IMG/VR virus record: IMGVR_UViG_3300029181_000093
Span: 1 to 4,983 of that record
Direction: 5' to 3' (one strand)
DNA: 4,983 nt
Origin: a virus
Taxonomy: Duplodnaviria > Heunggongvirae > Uroviricota > Caudoviricetes
The notes under the pieces are model-generated. The model searched no databases. It saw only the letters and a program-made list of their open reading frames with translations, and was not told the origin of the DNA. A program made the translations under genes and the position numbers. Shown piece by piece: positions 1-4,983 of the stretch (position 1 is its first letter; each line of letters starts with the position of its first letter).

Positions 1-157
1 CAGCCGGAATATCTGGCGGTGCAATATCGGTACTGTTTGCTGGCAGACCTGTATGAGGCGGAATATATGCGTCACCTTCACCAATAAATTCATTAGTTCC
101 GGCCAGCAGATTATAAATTTTTATGGTCCGTGGTTGTTCACTCATTCTGAATGCCAT
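1..157 (-). CDS. tfa: Tail fibre assembly protein Tfa, N-terminal 52 codons only; the 3' end lies beyond the left window edge
   Basis: Reverse-complement translation from the ATG at 155-157 gives [52 protein letters not shown], matching phage lambda Tfa N-terminus as I recall it. Its ATG overlaps the stf stop in a TAATG arrangement, as in lambda stf-tfa. It is absent from the ORF track because it is cut by the window edge. Confidence 0.9.
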
Positions 158-3100
158 TATGCAAGCCTCACAATATAGTTAAATGCGATGTTTTTGACGG
201 TGTTTTCCGCGTTACCAGCAGCGTTAACGGTGATGGTGTGTCCATGTGAACCAATCGCAACGGAGTGCGTGTGTGCACCAATACCGACAGTATGTGCGTG
301 TGCACCTGCAGATGCTGCTGTGCCGGACAGTGAGTGGCTATGGTTACCATCTGTACTGGTATTAGCTAACGCCCCCGTAGACATACCTACTGAGCCTTGT
401 ACACCCCAGGTATTTTGACCTGAGCTTGTATAACCATATTGATAAGTATCTTTAAAAACACTGGGGTTAAATCGACGGCCATCTCTATGGCTGTGATTAC
501 CAGCTGCATTCGTGCTGCCACTTAAACTATGGGTATGCGCACCAGTGTTATTCGTGGATTTAGTGCCGTAATCAAACGACGATGTGGTTTTCGTCCCCAA
601 ATCCGTACTGGATGCGCTGGCGCTGTGGGTATGCGATTTTATGCCGTCCTGTTCCTGAGACAATACGGCACGACCACTGGCGGGCTTGCCCTTAATCGTC
701 CAGCCACGCATATCAGGGATCACGCCTGACGGATAAGCGGCTGCAAGTTTCGGGTAGGCAGATTTGTCAAAAGTCTGCCCCTGCATCAGGGCATAACCAG
801 ACGGAACGGTATCTGATGGCCACGGGATTGGTGCGCCGACTGGGTAGCTTTCTGGTGGAAGATTTTTCGAGGTATAAACTTCTGCCCAGTCTTCCTCAAA
901 ACCATAACCGTCTCTTGAAGAACGGTAGAACAGACCACCATTTCTGTAATGCGCCTTCATCTGCAGGGTCCGGCAACTTCCGACTCCGGTATAGAAGTTA
1001 ACCAGAATATAGCTGTCGCCAGAGCGGGTGACATTATAAGCGCCTGATTCGGCATTCCAGGGAACGCCACCATCCGCATCGGCATATGTATCCGTTGCCC
1101 TTCTGGCAAAAGCAGCCACATGCGCGGCGGTTAAAGTAATATCTTTGGAACCATCAAACTCAACACCAGAAACCCGTCTTGGCGTTTGCAGCTTTGTTGC
1201 TGTTAATGCATTACCGTTCAGACTTGCGGACAGTTTGGTTCCAATAACCAGTTCGCCGGTTGCGTTATCAATAGCAAACGGTCTTAATGTATTCCAGCCA
1301 CCATAAACATCACCTTGATTGGTAAGCAGCAGGTAAGTTTTAGCGCCATCATTACGCCATAATGCCCCATACTCCCCACCTATCATTCGAATCTGATTAC
1401 CACCACGCGCTACAATTTCGTCTGTGGCAAAAAGTTTTTTGCACGACAAGTTATCGTTAACGATTAACGAATGAGACTCATAAAAACCACGCCCACTCTT
1501 AAAATCAAGGATAACGTCCGCCGCGATACATTCAGTCGCCGGATTTGTTGCCCCAAACTTATAGGTCGTATCATTAACAACGAGATCAGCACCAGGTGCG
1601 GATATTGACAGGCCATCTTCGATAAACGCAAAAACAGGGAAAGCAGCGCCATCAACATAGAACACAGAGCGCAAATCATCGCCCTTATTACTCATCATTA
1701 TTGAGTGGATGGCTCGTTCATTGTTTTGATATTGCCAGAACATTCCATAAGCATAACGCCCCCTGTCAGTCCAGCCACCAGGCATAACAAATCCGTTAAA
1801 CTCGCAGTTATTCATCGGATCGCCTGCGGTTCGCGTTGCCGTGGTGATAATGACCCTTGATGCCAGTTCGCTTACTGAGCCAGCAGAACGCATAACAACA
1901 ACAGGGTAATATTTTCCAGATGTTGCACCTGCAGGAGCGTTAACCCGCACATAACGCATACCACGCTTATCAGCAAAGTCTGTTTTACTGACCGCGTTAA
2001 TGTTGTTCAGGAAGCGTCCCTTATCGGGTATATCCGCACCGTTCTGGTCTTTCTGCAGACGTTTCTCAGCATTGTCATAGGCTGTTTTTACTGCCTTTGG
2101 TGTCGCGGCAAGCGTTTCAGACGTGCTGTTGGTCGCGCTGCTTAGCTGGATTATCCCTTTCTGTGCTGTCGTTGCATCCTGTGCGGTGTATTTCCCGTTA
2201 GCCAGGTCATACGCGGCCTTAACGGCTTTTGGTGTTGCCGCCAGTGACTCGGAAGTGCTGTTAGTCGCACTACTGAGCTGTACTATCCCCTTTTTCGTCG
2301 TGCTCGCATCCTCAAGCGCCACAGCGGATGCAATATCCTCTGCCCGTTTTGCTGCTGTCTCGGCGCGCGTTGCTGCGGATTCTGCCGTACTCTTGCTCTG
2401 TGCTGCCGCCGTCGCACTGCCAGCAGCCTCTGTTGCCTTCGTGGATGCCGTCGTGGCGCTGCCCTTCGCTGCTGACGCTTGTCTGGTCGCCTCATCTTTT
2501 GAAGCAGACGCCGATGAGGCCGATGACGCCGCCGAACTGGCGGACGATGCGGCAGCCGTTTTTGAGGATTCTGCGCTGGTTTCCGACGCTTTCGCGTTCG
2601 TTTCGGATGTCTTTGCTGCGGAAGCTGACCTCGCTGCTGCGCTGGCCTGTTCAGTGGCTTCGCCAGCCTTCGTTGTGGCTGTTGAAGCAGACGATGCGGC
2701 ACTTTCTGCCGACTTTCCGGCAGCGGTGGCACTGGCTGAGGCCTGCCCGGCACTTGTTGATGCGGCACTGGCAGATGATGCAGCCGCTGTTTTTGAGCCT
2801 GCCGCAGCTGAGGCACTCTGTCCCGCTGCCGTTTCAGAAGACCTGGCGTTCGTCTCGGACGTTTTTGCCGCCTTCGCGGAATTTCCTGCCGCCGTTGCCG
2901 AGGAAGCTGCGCTACTGGCGCTCGAGGATGCGTTCGTTTCTGATGATTTTGCCGCCTCTTTTGAAGCCGACGCATCCCGGGCTGAGGTGGCAGCTTCTGA
3001 CGCTTTCGTAGTCGCGGTGGATGCAGAAGTGGCTGCTGATTGTTGTGACGCTGCAGCATTCGTTTCTGACGTTTTCGCGGCACTGGCACTGGTAGCTGCC

Positions 3101-3459
3101 GCGCTTTTTGAGGACTCTGCAGCGGCAGCACTTTTTTCCGCTTCAGTGGCCTTTGTTGATGCCGTTCCTGCGCTGGAAGACGCTGACTGAGCCGACGAAG
3201 CGGCCTGTCCGGCTGACGTGCTGGCTGCGCGTGCTGAGCCTGCAGCATCAGTCGCATGGGTTGCCGCCTCACGGGCAGATGTGCCGGCATCGCCGGCTGA
3301 CTTCTTCGCGGCTGCCGTGTTCTGTGCCACCGCGGACGCGTTACGCGCCACCTCTTCCACCATCAGTTCAAAACGGCGCAGAGCCTCCGGACGGGCCTCA
3401 TCCTCCGTCATGGCACCGAGAAAATCATTCAGCGTACCGGGTCGGGAATCTTCATACAC
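157..3459 (-). CDS. stf: Side tail fibre protein Stf, long mosaic variant of 1100 aa, N-terminally truncated relative to lambda Stf
   Basis: A 3303-nt minus-strand ORF. Residues 1-40 ([13 protein letters not shown]...[12 protein letters not shown]) align with lambda Stf from about residue 79. It is followed by an Ala/Ser/Thr-rich shaft with recurring KTSETNA motifs, two tandem copies of the phage fibre repeat KGI(V/I)[11 protein letters not shown](S/T)LAATPKAVK, and a C-terminal region with [13 protein letters not shown]...[16 protein letters not shown] and clustered HxH motifs, ending [11 protein letters not shown] like lambda Stf and T4 gp37. The first codon is GTG; start choice is uncertain because the next in-frame ATG is at codon 17. 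Confidence 0.88.
2068..2292 (-). repeat. Tandem duplication (2 copies of about 132 bp, 44 aa) of the phage tail-fibre repeat motif inside stf
   Basis: Stf residues 390-433 and 434-464 are near-identical ([29 protein letters not shown] versus [29 protein letters not shown]). The corresponding DNA shows a clear direct repeat. This is coding, not CRISPR. Confidence 0.8.
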
Positions 3460-3652
3460 GGTGATGGTCCCGGCATGTGACGGCGGGAACGGGCGCTGAA
3501 TAATGCTCTTTCCGCTCTGCCATCACTTCAGCATCCGGACGTTCGCCAATTTTCGCCTCCCACGTCTCACCGAGCGTGGTGTTTACGAAGGTTTTACGTT
3601 TTCCCGTACTCGCACCGAAAATGTCAGCCAGCTGCTTTTTGTTGACTTCCAT
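3452..3652 (-). pseudogene. nu1: Chimeric terminase remnant: small terminase Nu1 codons 1-15 fused in frame to about 41 codons from the interior of large terminase gene A, terminating out of frame inside stf-homologous sequence
   Basis: The translation begins MEVNKKQLADIFGAS, the lambda Nu1 N-terminus, with lambda-like upstream sequence and RBS. From codon 16 it reads [41 protein letters not shown], which I recognise as an internal segment of lambda gpA. The last 9 codons ([10 protein letters not shown]) are stf DNA read in the wrong frame. Breakpoints are at about 3605-3608 (Nu1/A) and about 3484-3490 (A/stf). Confidence 0.75.
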
Positions 3653-3674
3653 TGTTCATTCCACGGACAAAAAC

Positions 3675-3795
3675 AGAGAAAGGAAACGACAGAGGCCAAA
3701 AAGCTCGCTTTCAGCACCTGTCGTTTCCTTTCTTTTCAGGGGGTATTTTAAATAAATACATTAAGTTACGACGAAGAAGAACGGAAACACCTTAA
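3675..3795 (-). other. cosB-like terminase binding region with three R elements (R1 3677..3688, R2 3722..3733 inverted, R3 3778..3789)
   Basis: The reverse complement is near-identical to the lambda left end between cosN and the Nu1 start. The R1 and R2 regions form a perfect 15-bp inverted repeat (gaaaggaaacgacag at 3678..3692 and ctgtcgtttcctttc at 3718..3732). R3 carries one substitution relative to lambda as I recall it. Confidence 0.8.
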
Positions 3796-3829
3796 ACCGG
3801 AAAATTTTCATAAATAGCGAAAACCCGCG

Positions 3830-3841
3830 AGGTCGCCGCCC
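3830..3841 (-). other. cosN cohesive-end site (12-nt GGGCGGCGACCT on the minus strand)
   Basis: The plus strand reads aggtcgccgccc, whose reverse complement is GGGCGGCGACCT, the lambda cohesive end. It is flanked on one side by CGCGGGTTTTCGCTATTTATGAAAATTTTCCGG (lambda left end) and on the other by lambda right-end sequence ending ...CGACAGGTTACG. Confidence 0.85.
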
Positions 3842-3892
3842 CGTAACCTGTCGGATCGCCGGAAAGGACCCGCAAAATGATAATAATTATCA
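3842..3892 (-). other. cosQ-side right-end region of cos, including a 15-bp palindrome TGATAATAATTATCA (3878..3892)
   Basis: This matches the lambda right-end terminal sequence with several substitutions. The palindrome is seen directly and has a near-identical counterpart in lambda. The exact cosQ element boundaries are not resolved here. Confidence 0.6.
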
Positions 3893-4040
3893 TCTGCATG
3901 TCACAACGTGCATCTACGCCATCAAACCACGTCAAATAATCAATTATGACGCAGGTATCATATTAATTGATCTGCATCAACTTAACGTAAAAACAACTTC
4001 AGACAATACAAATCAGCGACACTAAATACGGGACAACCTC

Positions 4041-4274
4041 ATGTCAACGAAGAACAGAACCCGCAGAACAACAATCCGCAACATCCGCTTTCCTAACCAA
4101 ATGATTGAACAAATTAACATCGCTCTTGATCAAAAAGGGTCCGGGAATTTCTCAGCCTGGGTCATTGAAGCCTGCCGCCGGAGACTGTGCTCAGAAAAAA
4201 GAGTTTCTCCTGAAGCAAACAAAGAAAAGAGTGACATTACTGAATTGCTCAGAAAACAGATCAGACCAGATTGA
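4041..4274 (+). CDS. Small basic ribbon-helix-helix (Arc/CopG-like) putative DNA-binding protein, 77 aa
   Basis: The ORF starts about 200 bp from cosN and is transcribed away from cos. The N-terminal 50 aa (MSTKNRTRRTTIRNIRFPNQMIEQINIALDQKGSGNFSAWVIEACRRRL) follow a beta-strand, helix, G-S turn, helix pattern typical of RHH folds, and match the lambda right-end ORF as I recall it. The C-terminal tail (CSEKRVSPEANKEKSDITELLRKQIRPD) differs from the lambda counterpart. No strong Shine-Dalgarno is seen. Confidence 0.65.
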   Translation: MSTKNRTRRTTIRNIRFPNQMIEQINIALDQKGSGNFSAWVIEACRRRLCSEKRVSPEANKEKSDITELLRKQIRPD

Positions 4275-4330
4275 AGCAATTTAGATAATCGTGCAGACTA
4301 CGCCCCTCATATCACATGGAAGGTACCACA

Positions 4331-4741
4331 ATGGCTCAGGTTGCCATTTTTAAACAAATATTCGATAAAGTGCGAAATAATTTAAACTATCACTGGTTTT
4401 ATTCTGAACTAAAACGTCACAATGTCTCACATTACATTTACTATTTAGCTACAGAGAATATTCATCTTGTTCTTGAAAACGATAATACGGTTTTAATAAA
4501 AGGACAGGGTAAGGTTGTAAATGTAAGATTTTCAAAAAATAAATGCCTTATAGAAGCCACCTTAAAAGGATTCAAATCAGGAGAGTTATCATTTTACGAA
4601 TACAGGAAAAATCTTGCTACAGCAGGGGTTTTCAGATGGATTACAAATATCCACGAAAACAAAAGGTATTACTATACCTTTGATAATTCATTACTCTTTA
4701 CTGAGAACATTCAGAACACTACACAAATATTTCCGCACTAA
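4331..4741 (+). CDS. ybcV: DUF1398-family protein resembling YbcV of E. coli cryptic prophage DLP12, 136 aa
   Basis: The ATG at 4331 is preceded by GGAAGG (4318..4323) at 7-nt spacing. The ORF-track start at 4316 has no RBS. The product ([18 protein letters not shown]...[31 protein letters not shown]) matches my recollection of YbcV (136 aa). The gene is strongly AT-rich compared with the neighbouring stf. Confidence 0.75.
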
Positions 4742-4893
4742 ATCATAACGTCCGGTTTCTTCCGTGCCAGAACCGGACTCGCTGGCATGATGAAATATGT
4801 GTACCCGGTAACCCCGGTGTGCATCGTTTTTGATTATTCCCGCACACTCGCGCAGAAGGAGTTCCCCGTCGGGCTACGGTCTCTGTTAATACG

Positions 4894-4983
4894 GGAACTC
4901 AGCCTGATGTTTTTCAATAAAGACATACTTCATTTCAGGCGCTTCGCGAAGTATGTCGCGGCCTTTTGGAGGATAGCCAGCTC
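4894..4983 (-). mobile_element. IS3-family insertion sequence fragment: 3' end of orfA (insE-like, 4930..4983, partial) and first 13 codons of orfB (insF-like, ATG at 4931..4933), truncated at about 4894
   Basis: The minus strand encodes ...ELAILQKAATYFAKRLK-stop, then ATGAAGTATGTCTTTATTGAAAAACATCAGGCTGAGTTC (MKYVFIEKHQAEF) in the -1 frame with the typical AAATGA overlap. I recognise this as the IS3 orfA/orfB junction. Homology stops abruptly after orfB codon 13, followed by PY-stop, so most of orfB and the far end of the IS are missing. Confidence 0.8.

What the first reader, a model, noticed from the sequence alone, without database searches (positions are those of the whole stretch)
157..3525. 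stf is N-terminally truncated and its expression probably depends on the upstream chimeric ORF
In the stf frame, homology to lambda Stf ([15 protein letters not shown]) continues 5' of the annotated GTG up to an in-frame stop at 3523..3525, with no start codon in between. The only plausible starts are the GTG at 3457..3459 with at most a weak GGGA upstream, or the ATG at codon 17. The chimeric Nu1'-A' ORF ends at TGA 3452..3454, 5 nt downstream of that GTG, an arrangement compatible with termination-reinitiation coupling. The protein would lack the N-terminal roughly 78 residues of lambda-type Stf, which probably anchor the fibre to the tail. It may therefore be an orphan fibre, a reservoir for host-range recombination, or a pseudogene.
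Basis: partly seen in the sequence, partly recalled or inferred. Interest (0 to 1): 0.5.

Follow-up and report, generated by a model that had tools for sequence, protein, structure and literature searches.

The report
Beheaded tail-fibre gene in decayed prophage
This is a deletion scar in a decayed lambda-like prophage of E. coli that left a side tail fibre gene without the part that anchors it to the tail; it is ordinary prophage decay, except that the cut falls at a spot in the gene where many unrelated deletions also end.

Summary
On the minus strand the window reads cos, Nu1 codons 1-15, gpA codons 350-390, then stf from codon 67, then tfa. Both joints are microhomology deletions: TA, in frame, and GTTCC, out of frame.

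Small corrections are needed. Stf homology stops at F67 (3489), and the next 11 codons up to the stop are gpA DNA read out of frame. The loss is 66 codons at DNA level, 76 residues from the GTG, or 92 from the ATG.

The lost part is strands 1-5 of the collar domain that clamps the fibre to gpV/gpM, so the product could not mount on a tail. The locus is a DLP12-type cryptic prophage with no tail genes.

The 8-nt stop/start overlap fits termination-reinitiation. However, that geometry arises by chance at about 20% of such stops in this gene, the SD-like match is at background level, and expression cannot be tested here. The best reading is a pseudogene-like remnant usable as a recombination donor.

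One thing was unexpected: stf nt 193-199 is a recurrent right-hand deletion endpoint with at least eight different left partners in E. coli and Salmonella. The mechanism is unknown.

The parts
1..157 (-). 5' part of tfa (tail fibre assembly gene). Its ATG at 157..155 overlaps the stf stop (TAATG). The gene runs off the window.
   Evidence: Sequence. The window is similar to the lambda stf 3' end and tfa start over 343..1. In the 99.8%-identical contig L003 a 194-aa Caudo_TAP gene is called from the last base of the stf stop.
157..3489 (-). stf remnant: codons 67 to the end of a lambda/Rac-type side tail fibre, with stop TAA at 157-159. It is open throughout (1100 codons from the GTG).
   Evidence: 94-97% nt identity to K-12 stfR from nt 199. 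Pfam hits are PF08400 positions 77-134 only, then Phage_fiber_2 x2, Gp34_trimer and Collar.
3457..3459 (-). GTG, the first start-type codon in the stf frame. It equals lambda Stf V77, the last residue of beta-strand 6.
3409..3411 (-). ATG at codon 17. It equals lambda Stf M93, the first residues of the flexible linker (92-101).
   Evidence: PMC12617516.
3486..3490 (-). Joint J2, gpA nt 1879 to stf nt ~195-199, with microhomology GTTCC. It is out of frame (gpA frame = stf frame +2). It lies in a recurrent deletion endpoint.
3486..3608 (-). Terminase large subunit gpA fragment, codons 350-390, 123 nt, 100% identical to lambda 1757-1879.
   Evidence: Pfam GpA_nuclease positions 36-75 of 294.
3607..3608 (-). 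Joint J1, Nu1 nt 236 to gpA nt 1757, with microhomology TA. It is in frame.
3608..3652 (-). Nu1 (terminase small subunit) codons 1-15, with the native lambda-type translation start.
3452..3652 (-). 66-aa chimeric ORF: Nu1(1-15) + gpA(350-390) + 10 out-of-frame codons from stf. It ends at TGA 3452-3454.
   Evidence: The identical protein is called on 5 metagenome/Logan contigs.
3523..3525 (-). TGA that closes the stf reading frame upstream. It lies in gpA-derived DNA.
3653..3871 (-). Complete lambda-type cos: cosQ 3871..3865, cosN overhang GGGCGGCGACCT 3841..3830, and cosB up to the Nu1 start.
   Evidence: 95.7% identity to lambda 48141-48502 + 1-236, colinear.
4041..4274 (+). ylcI/ynfO-type gene (DUF3950), divergent from the cos-nu1' side.
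4316..4741 (+). ybcV/ydfO-type gene (DUF1398).

Best explanation
The region is a deletion scar in a DLP12-type cryptic lambdoid prophage of E. coli.

Two microhomology-mediated deletions removed nu1 codons 16-181 plus gpA codons 1-349, and then gpA codon 391 through the whole head and tail gene block, lom and stf codons 1-66. What remains is cos-nu1'(1-15)-A'(350-390)-'stf(67-end)-tfa.

The stf remnant has lost three things:
- its own ribosome-binding site and start codon;
- five of the six beta-strands of the collar domain;
- the beta4-beta5 loop that contacts gpV and gpM.

Any product therefore could not be mounted on a lambda-type tail, and the element has no tail genes anyway.

The 66-aa ORF and its 8-nt overlap with the first GTG of the stf frame are incidental results of the out-of-frame A'|stf joint. 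Low-level reinitiation there is possible, but nothing shows it and nothing suggests it was selected.

The most likely biological role of the intact shaft, receptor-binding part and tfa is passive. They are homologous DNA that infecting or resident lambdoid phages can recombine with to change host range.

Shown: the anatomy, the joints, the domain loss, the locus and the rarity of this allele. Inferred: the lack of virion function and the donor role. Untested: transcription and translation.
For: Anatomy and joints.

Domain loss:
- Pfam PF08400 matches positions 77-134 of 134, against 1-134 in StfR.
- PDB 9E7M/9MGH covers Stf 1-94.
- PMC12617516 describes residues 1-91 as a collar of 12 copies around the gpV/gpM junction, with the beta4-beta5 loop making the contacts, then a linker at 92-101 and a coiled coil from 102.
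- The AF2 model of a full-length N-terminus places the strands at 2-8, 20-26, 32-36, 48-54, 56-64 and 70-77, with a helix at 86-91.
- Canonical homologues start MAVKISG....

Locus: contig L003, 99.8% identical, continues into tfa, a tfaX-like gene, appY, ompT, envY, ybcH and nfrA. This matches K-12 DLP12.

Annotation: PGAP marks the same A'|stf joint in strain GmM062 as two pseudogenes.

No sign of a dedicated start:
- SD-like energy is -4.0 kcal/mol, at the background level.
- Promoter-like sites are not above shuffles.
- The -8 geometry arises by chance at 20% of frame-2 stops.

Donor role: lambda recombines with DLP12 (cos, nu1, A) and with Qin and Rac (stf, tfa) at measurable frequency (PMC3945230).
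Against: The 3.3-kb ORF is fully open in the window and in all independent contigs that carry this allele.

The two known carriers of the A'|stf joint (the window and GmM062) differ at dS 0.14 with dN/dS 0.28. This could mean purifying selection on the truncated gene. Gene conversion from intact stf copies would give the same pattern.

The -8 overlap is a configuration that does support termination-reinitiation in native gene pairs (PMC10666635).

A truncated cryptic-prophage Stf (StfE2 of e14) has been reported to block phage T2 adsorption when produced (PMC12529663). A host-level function for an orphan fibre is therefore not excluded.
Confidence: 0.72

Rival explanations
1. The truncated Stf is made, through termination-reinitiation after the Nu1'-A' ORF or through initiation at ATG codon 17. 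It acts in the host cell as a collar-less fibre together with Tfa, for example by masking an outer-membrane receptor or interfering with incoming phages. This is the role reported for StfE2 of e14.
For: - The 8-nt overlap lies within the -8..+10 window used as predictive of termination-reinitiation.
- The Nu1 translation start is the native lambda one.
- A start at M93 would begin exactly at the linker and give a cleanly delimited shaft plus receptor-binding protein.
- The ORF and tfa are intact, and dN/dS between carriers is 0.28.
- StfE2 provides a precedent.
Against: - No promoter or SD signal exceeds chance.
- The geometry has a chance rate of about 20%.
- Among eight independent joints at the same stf site, only three are in frame with the upstream gene, which is the random expectation. 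Nothing therefore suggests selection for expression.
- It is unclear how a cytoplasmic fibre would reach surface receptors.
- The allele is rare: 0 of 5,426 complete genomes carry both joints.
Confidence: 0.12
2. On origin: the A'|stf joint is not a random deletion. It is the product of a site-preferring, directional process acting at stf nt 193-199. Candidates are a sequence-specific break followed by one-sided degradation and microhomology joining; a Cas3-like process was considered.
For: The same right endpoint is joined to at least eight different left partners:
- gpA (window, GmM062);
- Nu1 (FG31-1 and 3 more genomes);
- antisense ylcI (S43, MB06022, 3 metagenome contigs);
- gpJ (2014EL-1346-6, IMG/VR);
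- Lom;
- gpW;
- in Salmonella, an Ead/Ea22-like gene and gpI.

Left ends lie 0.5 kb to more than 20 kb away and always on the same side, with 3-5 nt of microhomology.

In samples not conditioned on the site, 7 joints fall at the site against 3 elsewhere in the first ~300 nt. About 0.2 would be expected at a 7-nt site if endpoints were uniform.

A type I-E PAM (AAG or AGG) sits immediately 5' of the retained sequence in both E. coli and Salmonella.
Against: - No matching CRISPR spacer in the expected register was found in 5,426 genomes.
- There is no significant hairpin (z about 0).
- The nearby Chi-like octamer is in the wrong orientation and is lost in the joints.
- Two of the joints (Lom, gpW) are known only from draft or Logan assemblies.
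- The DNA-pattern searches could only find joints at this site.
Confidence: 0.55
3. The remnant still serves as a virion fibre in trans, assembling on the tails of a co-resident or infecting lambdoid phage.
For: The shaft, receptor-binding region and chaperone gene are intact.
Against: Strands 1-5 of the collar and the beta4-beta5 loop that binds gpV/gpM are deleted. Each fibre is held by three collar domains.
Confidence: 0.03

Closest known systems
Qin cryptic prophage of E. coli K-12: nohA-stfQ-tfaQ
   Same: It has a cos-nu1 remnant fused by deletion to a 5'-truncated stf followed by tfa. The two ORFs overlap, and ynfO/ydfO lie on the other strand upstream.
   Different: K-12 keeps nearly all of nu1 (to lambda nt 719) and only the last ~320 codons of stf. 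It has no gpA fragment and lies at a different chromosomal locus.
DLP12 cryptic prophage of E. coli K-12: ylcI-nohD-aaaD-tfaD-ybcY-tfaX-appY-ompT
   Same: It has the same locus and flanks: ybcV, ylcI and cos on one side, and a tfaX-like gene, appY, ompT and envY on the other.
   Different: K-12 has full nohD, a gpA N-terminal fragment (aaaD) and no stf. The window has 15 codons of nu1, a different gpA fragment (codons 350-390) and a 1,100-codon stf.
Qin prophage of E. coli GmM062 (NZ_CM183653.1)
   Same: The gpA(390)|stf(67) joint is identical to the nucleotide. PGAP calls both parts pseudogenes.
   Different: It has full nohA and gpA 1-390, and sits at the Qin locus. The flanks are 3-6% diverged, so the joint is either old or arose twice.
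Lambda PaPa stf (orf-401/orf-314) versus Ur-lambda Stf
   Same: Both are laboratory-known cases of an inactivated side tail fibre gene in a lambdoid genome. The protein family and the collar domain are the same.
   Different: Lambda PaPa carries a frameshift in the middle of the gene and keeps the collar. Here the collar is deleted and the rest is intact.
StfE2 of cryptic prophage e14 (PinQ/PinE inversion; PMC12529663)
   Same: It is a truncated cryptic-prophage Stf with no virion to join, for which a host-level role is claimed.
   Different: StfE2 is created by site-specific inversion and is small. No invertase site or pin gene is present in this window, and no phenotype is known for this allele.

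Membership tests
Lambda-type side tail fibre Stf (functional virion fibre) | Complete N-terminal collar domain (Pfam PF08400; lambda residues 1-91) that binds gpV/gpM | tested here: not met
   Only profile positions 77-134 of 134 match. Codons 1-66 are absent. Strands 1-5 and the beta4-beta5 loop are lost.
Lambda-type side tail fibre Stf (functional virion fibre) | Own start codon with an SD downstream of lom | tested here: not met
   The native start (GGGGTGAAT-ATG, -6.0 kcal/mol) is deleted. The first start-type codon is an internal GTG with a background-level SD.
Lambda-type side tail fibre Stf (functional virion fibre) | Shaft repeats, trimerisation and collar-type distal domains, followed by tfa with stop/start overlap | tested here: met
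   Phage_fiber_2 x2, Gp34_trimer and Collar are present. The TAATG overlap with tfa is visible in the sequence.
Gene pair coupled by termination-reinitiation | Co-directional ORFs with distance -8 to +10 nt | tested here: met
   GTGTATGA gives an overlap of 8 nt. The range is taken from PMC10666635.
Gene pair coupled by termination-reinitiation | The upstream ORF is translated, and downstream translation falls when it is blocked | not testable with these tools
   This needs reporter fusions or ribosome profiling.
Gene pair coupled by termination-reinitiation | The arrangement is more than chance or maintained by selection | tested here: inconclusive
   The same geometry occurs at 15 of 75 frame-2 stops in this gene. 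It follows automatically from the joint and is shared by the other out-of-frame alleles.
DLP12-type cryptic prophage | cos-nu1 region flanked by ylcI/ybcV on one side and tfa-tfaX-appY-ompT-envY on the other | tested here: met
   The window holds ybcV-like, ylcI-like, cos and nu1'. Contig L003 (99.8% identical over 3.9 kb) continues into appY, ompT, envY, ybcH and nfrA.
DLP12-type cryptic prophage | Integration next to argU with intD | not tested
   This lies outside the window and outside the contigs fetched.
Lambda terminase (Nu1 / gpA) | Complete Nu1 and gpA ATPase and nuclease domains | tested here: not met
   15 codons of Nu1 and 41 codons of gpA remain.
Type I-E CRISPR self-targeting deletion (considered for the recurrent endpoint) | PAM next to the fixed endpoint, with deletion on the PAM side | tested here: met
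   AAG/AGG lies immediately 5' of the retained GTTCC... or TATCC... in E. coli and Salmonella. All deletions extend to that side.
Type I-E CRISPR self-targeting deletion (considered for the recurrent endpoint) | A spacer matching the protospacer in CRISPR arrays | tested here: not met
   No repeat-spacer-repeat match was found in 5,426 E. coli genomes. The best places are generic arrays at about 90% identity in two pieces. Other registers, I-F arrays and Salmonella arrays were not searched.

The most novel reading that the evidence does not exclude
The boundary before stf codon 67 (GGGTTCC / GGGTATCC, just 5' of CCNCCGTCACATGCCGG) is a site-specific, one-directional deletion hot spot in enterobacterial lambdoid prophages. 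It would be driven by an unidentified nuclease or defence-type process.

The process repeatedly produces collar-less stf-tfa modules fused to whatever lies upstream. These modules would persist because they serve the host (receptor masking) or phages (host-range cassettes). The window would then be one product of this process rather than a random scar.
Probability: 0.12. Interest if true: 0.65.

Novelty: new member of a known kind. Interest (0 to 1): 0.3.

Why it matters
In itself it matters little. It is one more decay allele of a cryptic prophage, and automatic annotation treats such remnants inconsistently. The same kind of remnant is called a pseudogene in GmM062, S43 and FG31-1 but an intact CDS in 2014EL-1346-6.

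It is useful as a worked case. The recent Ur-lambda structure lets one state exactly which structural elements a 5'-truncated stf has lost, and therefore that it cannot be a virion fibre.

The side observation could matter more. If deletions in lambdoid prophages repeatedly end at one 7-nt site of stf in two genera, prophage decay there is not random. The cause, whether a break-prone sequence, a nuclease or a defence system, would become directly testable.

Tried and rejected
- **Search for the exact allele in 5,426 complete E. coli genomes.** The double joint is absent, the A'|stf joint is present once, and the Nu1'|A' joint is absent. The allele is real nonetheless: five metagenome/Logan contigs are 99.8-100% identical.
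- **Dedicated expression signals.** The promoter and terminator scan is not above shuffles. The SD strength is at background. There are no Rfam families.
- **Natural short isoform.** Rejected, because canonical homologues start at residue 1. The few proteins starting MYEDS or MTEDD are gene-caller products of truncated loci.
- **Selection for in-frame fusion at the recurrent site.** Three of eight joints are in frame with the upstream gene, which is the random expectation.
- **Hairpin at the hot spot.** z-scores are 0.0-0.6 on both strands in E. coli and Salmonella.
- **Chi-protected end.** The Chi-like GTTGGTGG lies on the deleted side and faces the wrong way, and no complement of Chi lies just to the right (read from the sequence, not scanned with a tool).
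- **Pin/Gin-type crossover site and integron-type GTT core.** No sequence match; considered from memory only.
- **CRISPR self-targeting.** The PAM fits, but no spacer was found.
- **Count of the Lom|stf joint in complete genomes.** Uninformative, because lom and stf are normally close enough to be joined into one place.
Full report
**What is in the window**

All features below are read on the minus strand.

- A complete lambda-type cos is present: cosQ at 3871..3865, the cosN overhang GGGCGGCGACCT at 3841..3830, and cosB. This stretch is colinear with lambda 48141-48502 + 1-236 at 95.7% identity.
- It is followed by the native Nu1 start and Nu1 codons 1-15 (3652..3608).
- Next come 123 nt of gpA that are 100% identical to lambda 1757-1879, codons 350-390 (3608..3486).
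- Then comes stf from codon 67 to its stop (3489..157).
- The start of tfa overlaps the stf stop as TAATG.
- On the plus strand lie a ylcI/ynfO-type gene (4041-4274, DUF3950) and a ybcV/ydfO-type gene (4316-4741, DUF1398).
- No Rfam family matches anywhere in the window.

**The two joints**

- Nu1|gpA joins AGTA to CGGG with two shared bases (TA) and is in frame.
- gpA|stf joins GCGCCCGTTCC to CGCCGTCAC. Many intact stf alleles read GAAGGGTTCCCGCC, so the shared bases are GTTCC.
- The gpA frame enters stf in frame +2 and stops after ten codons at TGA 3452-3454.
- The resulting 66-aa ORF is Nu1(1-15) + gpA(350-390) + [10 protein letters not shown].

Every coordinate is right. Three details need correction.

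1. Stf homology 5' of the GTG is ten codons long and ends at F67. The other eleven codons up to the TGA at 3523-3525 are gpA DNA read in another frame.
2. The GTG is lambda V77 and the ATG is lambda M93. The loss is therefore 66 codons of DNA, 76 residues from the GTG, or 92 from the ATG.
3. The 'weak GGGA' pairs with the anti-SD at -4.0 kcal/mol. About 32% of all positions in the gene body reach that value. The native stf start scores -6.0.

**What the lost part does**

- Pfam PF08400 matches the window protein only at profile positions 77-134 of 134. K-12 StfR matches positions 1-134.
- Lambda Stf residues 1-94 have been solved in the Ur-lambda tail (PDB 9E7M and 9MGH).
- The paper (PMC12617516) describes six antiparallel strands and a helix. 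Twelve copies form a collar around the gpV/gpM junction.
- The beta4-beta5 loop makes the contacts to gpV E63, gpM R80, K2 and W6.
- Residues 92-101 are a flexible linker, and the coiled coil starts at 102.
- An AF2 model of a full-length homologue was built from 30 sequences (mean pLDDT 63, so only the secondary structure is used). It places the strands at 2-8, 20-26, 32-36, 48-54, 56-64 and 70-77, with the helix at 86-91.
- The deletion therefore removes strands 1-5 and the contact loop. A start at the GTG removes strand 6 as well. A start at the ATG would begin exactly at the linker.
- Among 120 short homologues of this region, the great majority begin MAVKISG... The few that begin MYEDS or MTEDD are gene-caller products of truncated loci.
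- The refutation condition 'full-length homologues naturally start here' is therefore not met.

**Where it comes from**

- No complete E. coli genome among 5,426 has both joints. One genome (GmM062) has the gpA|stf joint and none has the Nu1|gpA joint.
- The allele is nevertheless real. The 66-aa ORF is called on five metagenome or Logan contigs that are 99.8-100% identical to the window.
- One of these contigs, L003, continues through tfa, a tfaX-like fragment, appY, ompT, envY, ybcH and nfrA. This is the right end of DLP12 in K-12.
- The element is thus a DLP12-type cryptic prophage that decayed along a different path from K-12. K-12 has nohD-aaaD-tfaD and no stf.
- Other strains show still other paths.
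- PGAP marks the same gpA|stf joint in GmM062 as two pseudogenes.

**Is expression coupled to the chimeric ORF?**

- The geometry is compatible. An 8-nt overlap is the third most common class among native gene pairs. Distances from -8 to +10 are taken as predictive of termination-reinitiation, which fades by about 20-40 nt (PMC10666635).
- The arrangement is, however, simply what the out-of-frame joint produces.
- Within this same stf, 15 of 75 frame-2 stops (20%) have an in-frame ATG/GTG/TTG at -8..+10.
- Promoter-like sites in 3300-4983 number 4, against 2.6 +/- 1.7 in shuffles. The best one (3904..3877, minus strand) lies in conserved cos-flanking DNA.
- The native late promoter lies outside the window, beyond two genes on the opposite strand.
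- Transcription and translation cannot be assessed with these tools. Coupling therefore remains possible but unsupported.

**Signs for and against function**

- The 3.3-kb ORF and the tfa start are intact in every copy seen.
- The window and GmM062 alleles differ at dS 0.14 and dN/dS 0.28. These values are similar to comparisons with full-length StfR (0.19).
- There are four differences even inside the 123-nt gpA fragment, and a near-identical block in the middle of stf.
- This pattern fits purifying selection. It fits equally well repeated gene conversion from intact stf copies in the same genomes, or two origins of the joint. The data cannot separate these.
- Experimental precedent exists for the passive role. 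Lambda recombines with DLP12 in the cos-nu1-A region, and with Qin and Rac in stf-tfa. Breaks at cos stimulate the exchange (PMC3945230). The window keeps cos and all the needed homology.
- A precedent for an active role also exists. StfE2 of e14 was reported to block T2 adsorption when produced (PMC12529663).

**An unexpected finding: a recurrent deletion endpoint**

The right end of the gpA|stf joint is shared by many unrelated deletions. Immediately 5' of CCGCCGTCACATGCC (E. coli) or CCCCCGTCACATGCC (Salmonella), the following left partners were found.

| Left partner | Where seen |
|---|---|
| gpA nt 1879 | Window, GmM062 |
| Nu1 nt 705, in frame | FG31-1 and three more complete genomes |
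| Antisense ylcI | Complete genomes S43 and MB06022, and three metagenome contigs |
| C-terminal part of gpJ | Complete genome 2014EL-1346-6, and an IMG/VR contig |
| Lom codon ~109, in frame | Draft genome |
| gpW codon 35 plus 12 nt of filler, in frame | Logan assembly |
| Ead/Ea22-like gene | Salmonella |
| gpI | Salmonella |

- All left partners lie upstream of stf, 0.5 kb to more than 20 kb away.
- Each joint has 3-5 shared bases, and three of eight are in frame with the upstream gene, as chance predicts.
- In samples not conditioned on the site (the protein search and the first genome search), seven joints lie at the site and three elsewhere in the first ~300 nt. About 0.2 would be expected at a 7-nt site if endpoints were uniform.
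- In the 46 IMG/VR loci that carry the downstream 25-mer, the only joint inside stf 1-198 is at this site.
- The pattern searches could only find joints at this site and are not used for that estimate.

**Tests of explanations for the hot spot**

- No significant hairpin forms on either strand in either genus.
- A Chi-like octamer lies on the deleted side in the wrong orientation (read from the sequence).
- A type I-E PAM (AAG/AGG) lies exactly at the boundary, and one-sided loss on the PAM side is what Cas3 would give. However, no matching spacer exists in the expected register in 5,426 genomes.
- The cause remains open.
- Weaker coincidences were also seen at Nu1 nt 236/237, Nu1 nt 701/705 and gpA nt 1755/1757.

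**Verdict**

The finding describes a real but ordinary object: a 5'-truncated stf in a decayed DLP12-type prophage. It cannot be a virion fibre. Its apparent coupling to a chimeric upstream ORF is a by-product of the deletion. It most plausibly survives as recombination material.

The interest of the finding itself is low. The recurrent endpoint at stf codon 66/67 is the one feature that deserves follow-up.

Noticed in passing
window 3486-3490 (stf nt ~193-199); also L001, L012, L015, L016, L030, L063-L065, L068-L070, L072, L073: This position in stf is a recurrent right-hand deletion endpoint. At least eight different left partners are joined there, each with 3-5 nt of microhomology: gpA, Nu1, antisense ylcI, gpJ, Lom and gpW in E. 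coli, and Ead/Ea22-like and gpI in Salmonella. All partners lie on the upstream side. The mechanism is unknown. Hairpin, Chi and CRISPR-spacer explanations were checked and not supported.
   Followed up: partly
window 3607-3608 and 3608; L002 3130-3131; L011 ~4595; L012 ~5063: Other breakpoints nearly coincide among DLP12/Qin decay variants. Nu1 nt 236/237 is used with two different partners (gpA 1757 here, the lom end in NCTC9040). gpA nt 1755/1757 is used with two partners (Nu1-236 here, Nu1-701 in strain 573). Nu1 nt 701/705 is also used with two partners. GATAC/GTATC occurs at three of these sites.
   Followed up: partly
window 3653-3871 (-): A complete lambda-type cos (cosQ, cosN, cosB) survives although the terminase genes are gone. 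A helper lambdoid terminase could in principle cut here. De Paepe et al. found that cos in DLP12 stimulates recombination with lambda.
   Followed up: partly
window 3380-3608 versus L001 3998-4226: The two carriers of the identical gpA|stf joint sit in different prophage loci (DLP12-type here, Qin in GmM062). They differ by 3-6% on both flanks, including 4 differences inside the 123-nt gpA fragment. The joint is therefore either old and spread by recombination, or it arose twice.
   Followed up: partly
L073 4051-4060 (E. coli 2014EL-1346-6); L072 4057; L001 955-4107: PGAP treats equivalent 5'-truncated stf remnants inconsistently. They are pseudogenes in GmM062, S43 and FG31-1. In 2014EL-1346-6 the remnant is an intact 925-aa CDS, because the gpJ|stf joint happens to create GTG GCG TTC in frame.
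   Followed up: no
window ~2090-2290 (-): This stf carries two tandem copies of the Phage_fiber_2 repeat (…[15 protein letters not shown]…AATPKAVK…), and both copies align to the same stretch of K-12 stfR (nt 1376-1482). The distal ~200 nt before the last 190 nt are also unrelated to StfR, so the receptor-binding module differs.
   Followed up: no
window 3877-3904 (-): This is the best sigma-70-like match in the region (GTGACA-16-TATCAT, 10 of 12), pointing towards cos and nu1'. It lies in DNA conserved with the lambda right end, and the number of such sites is not above shuffles.
   Followed up: no
window 4130-4279 (-) and L063-L065, L072: The antisense strand of ylcI carries an open frame with an ATG (MTQAEKFPDPF…). 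In the ylcI|stf deletion allele this frame runs straight into stf codon 67.
   Followed up: no
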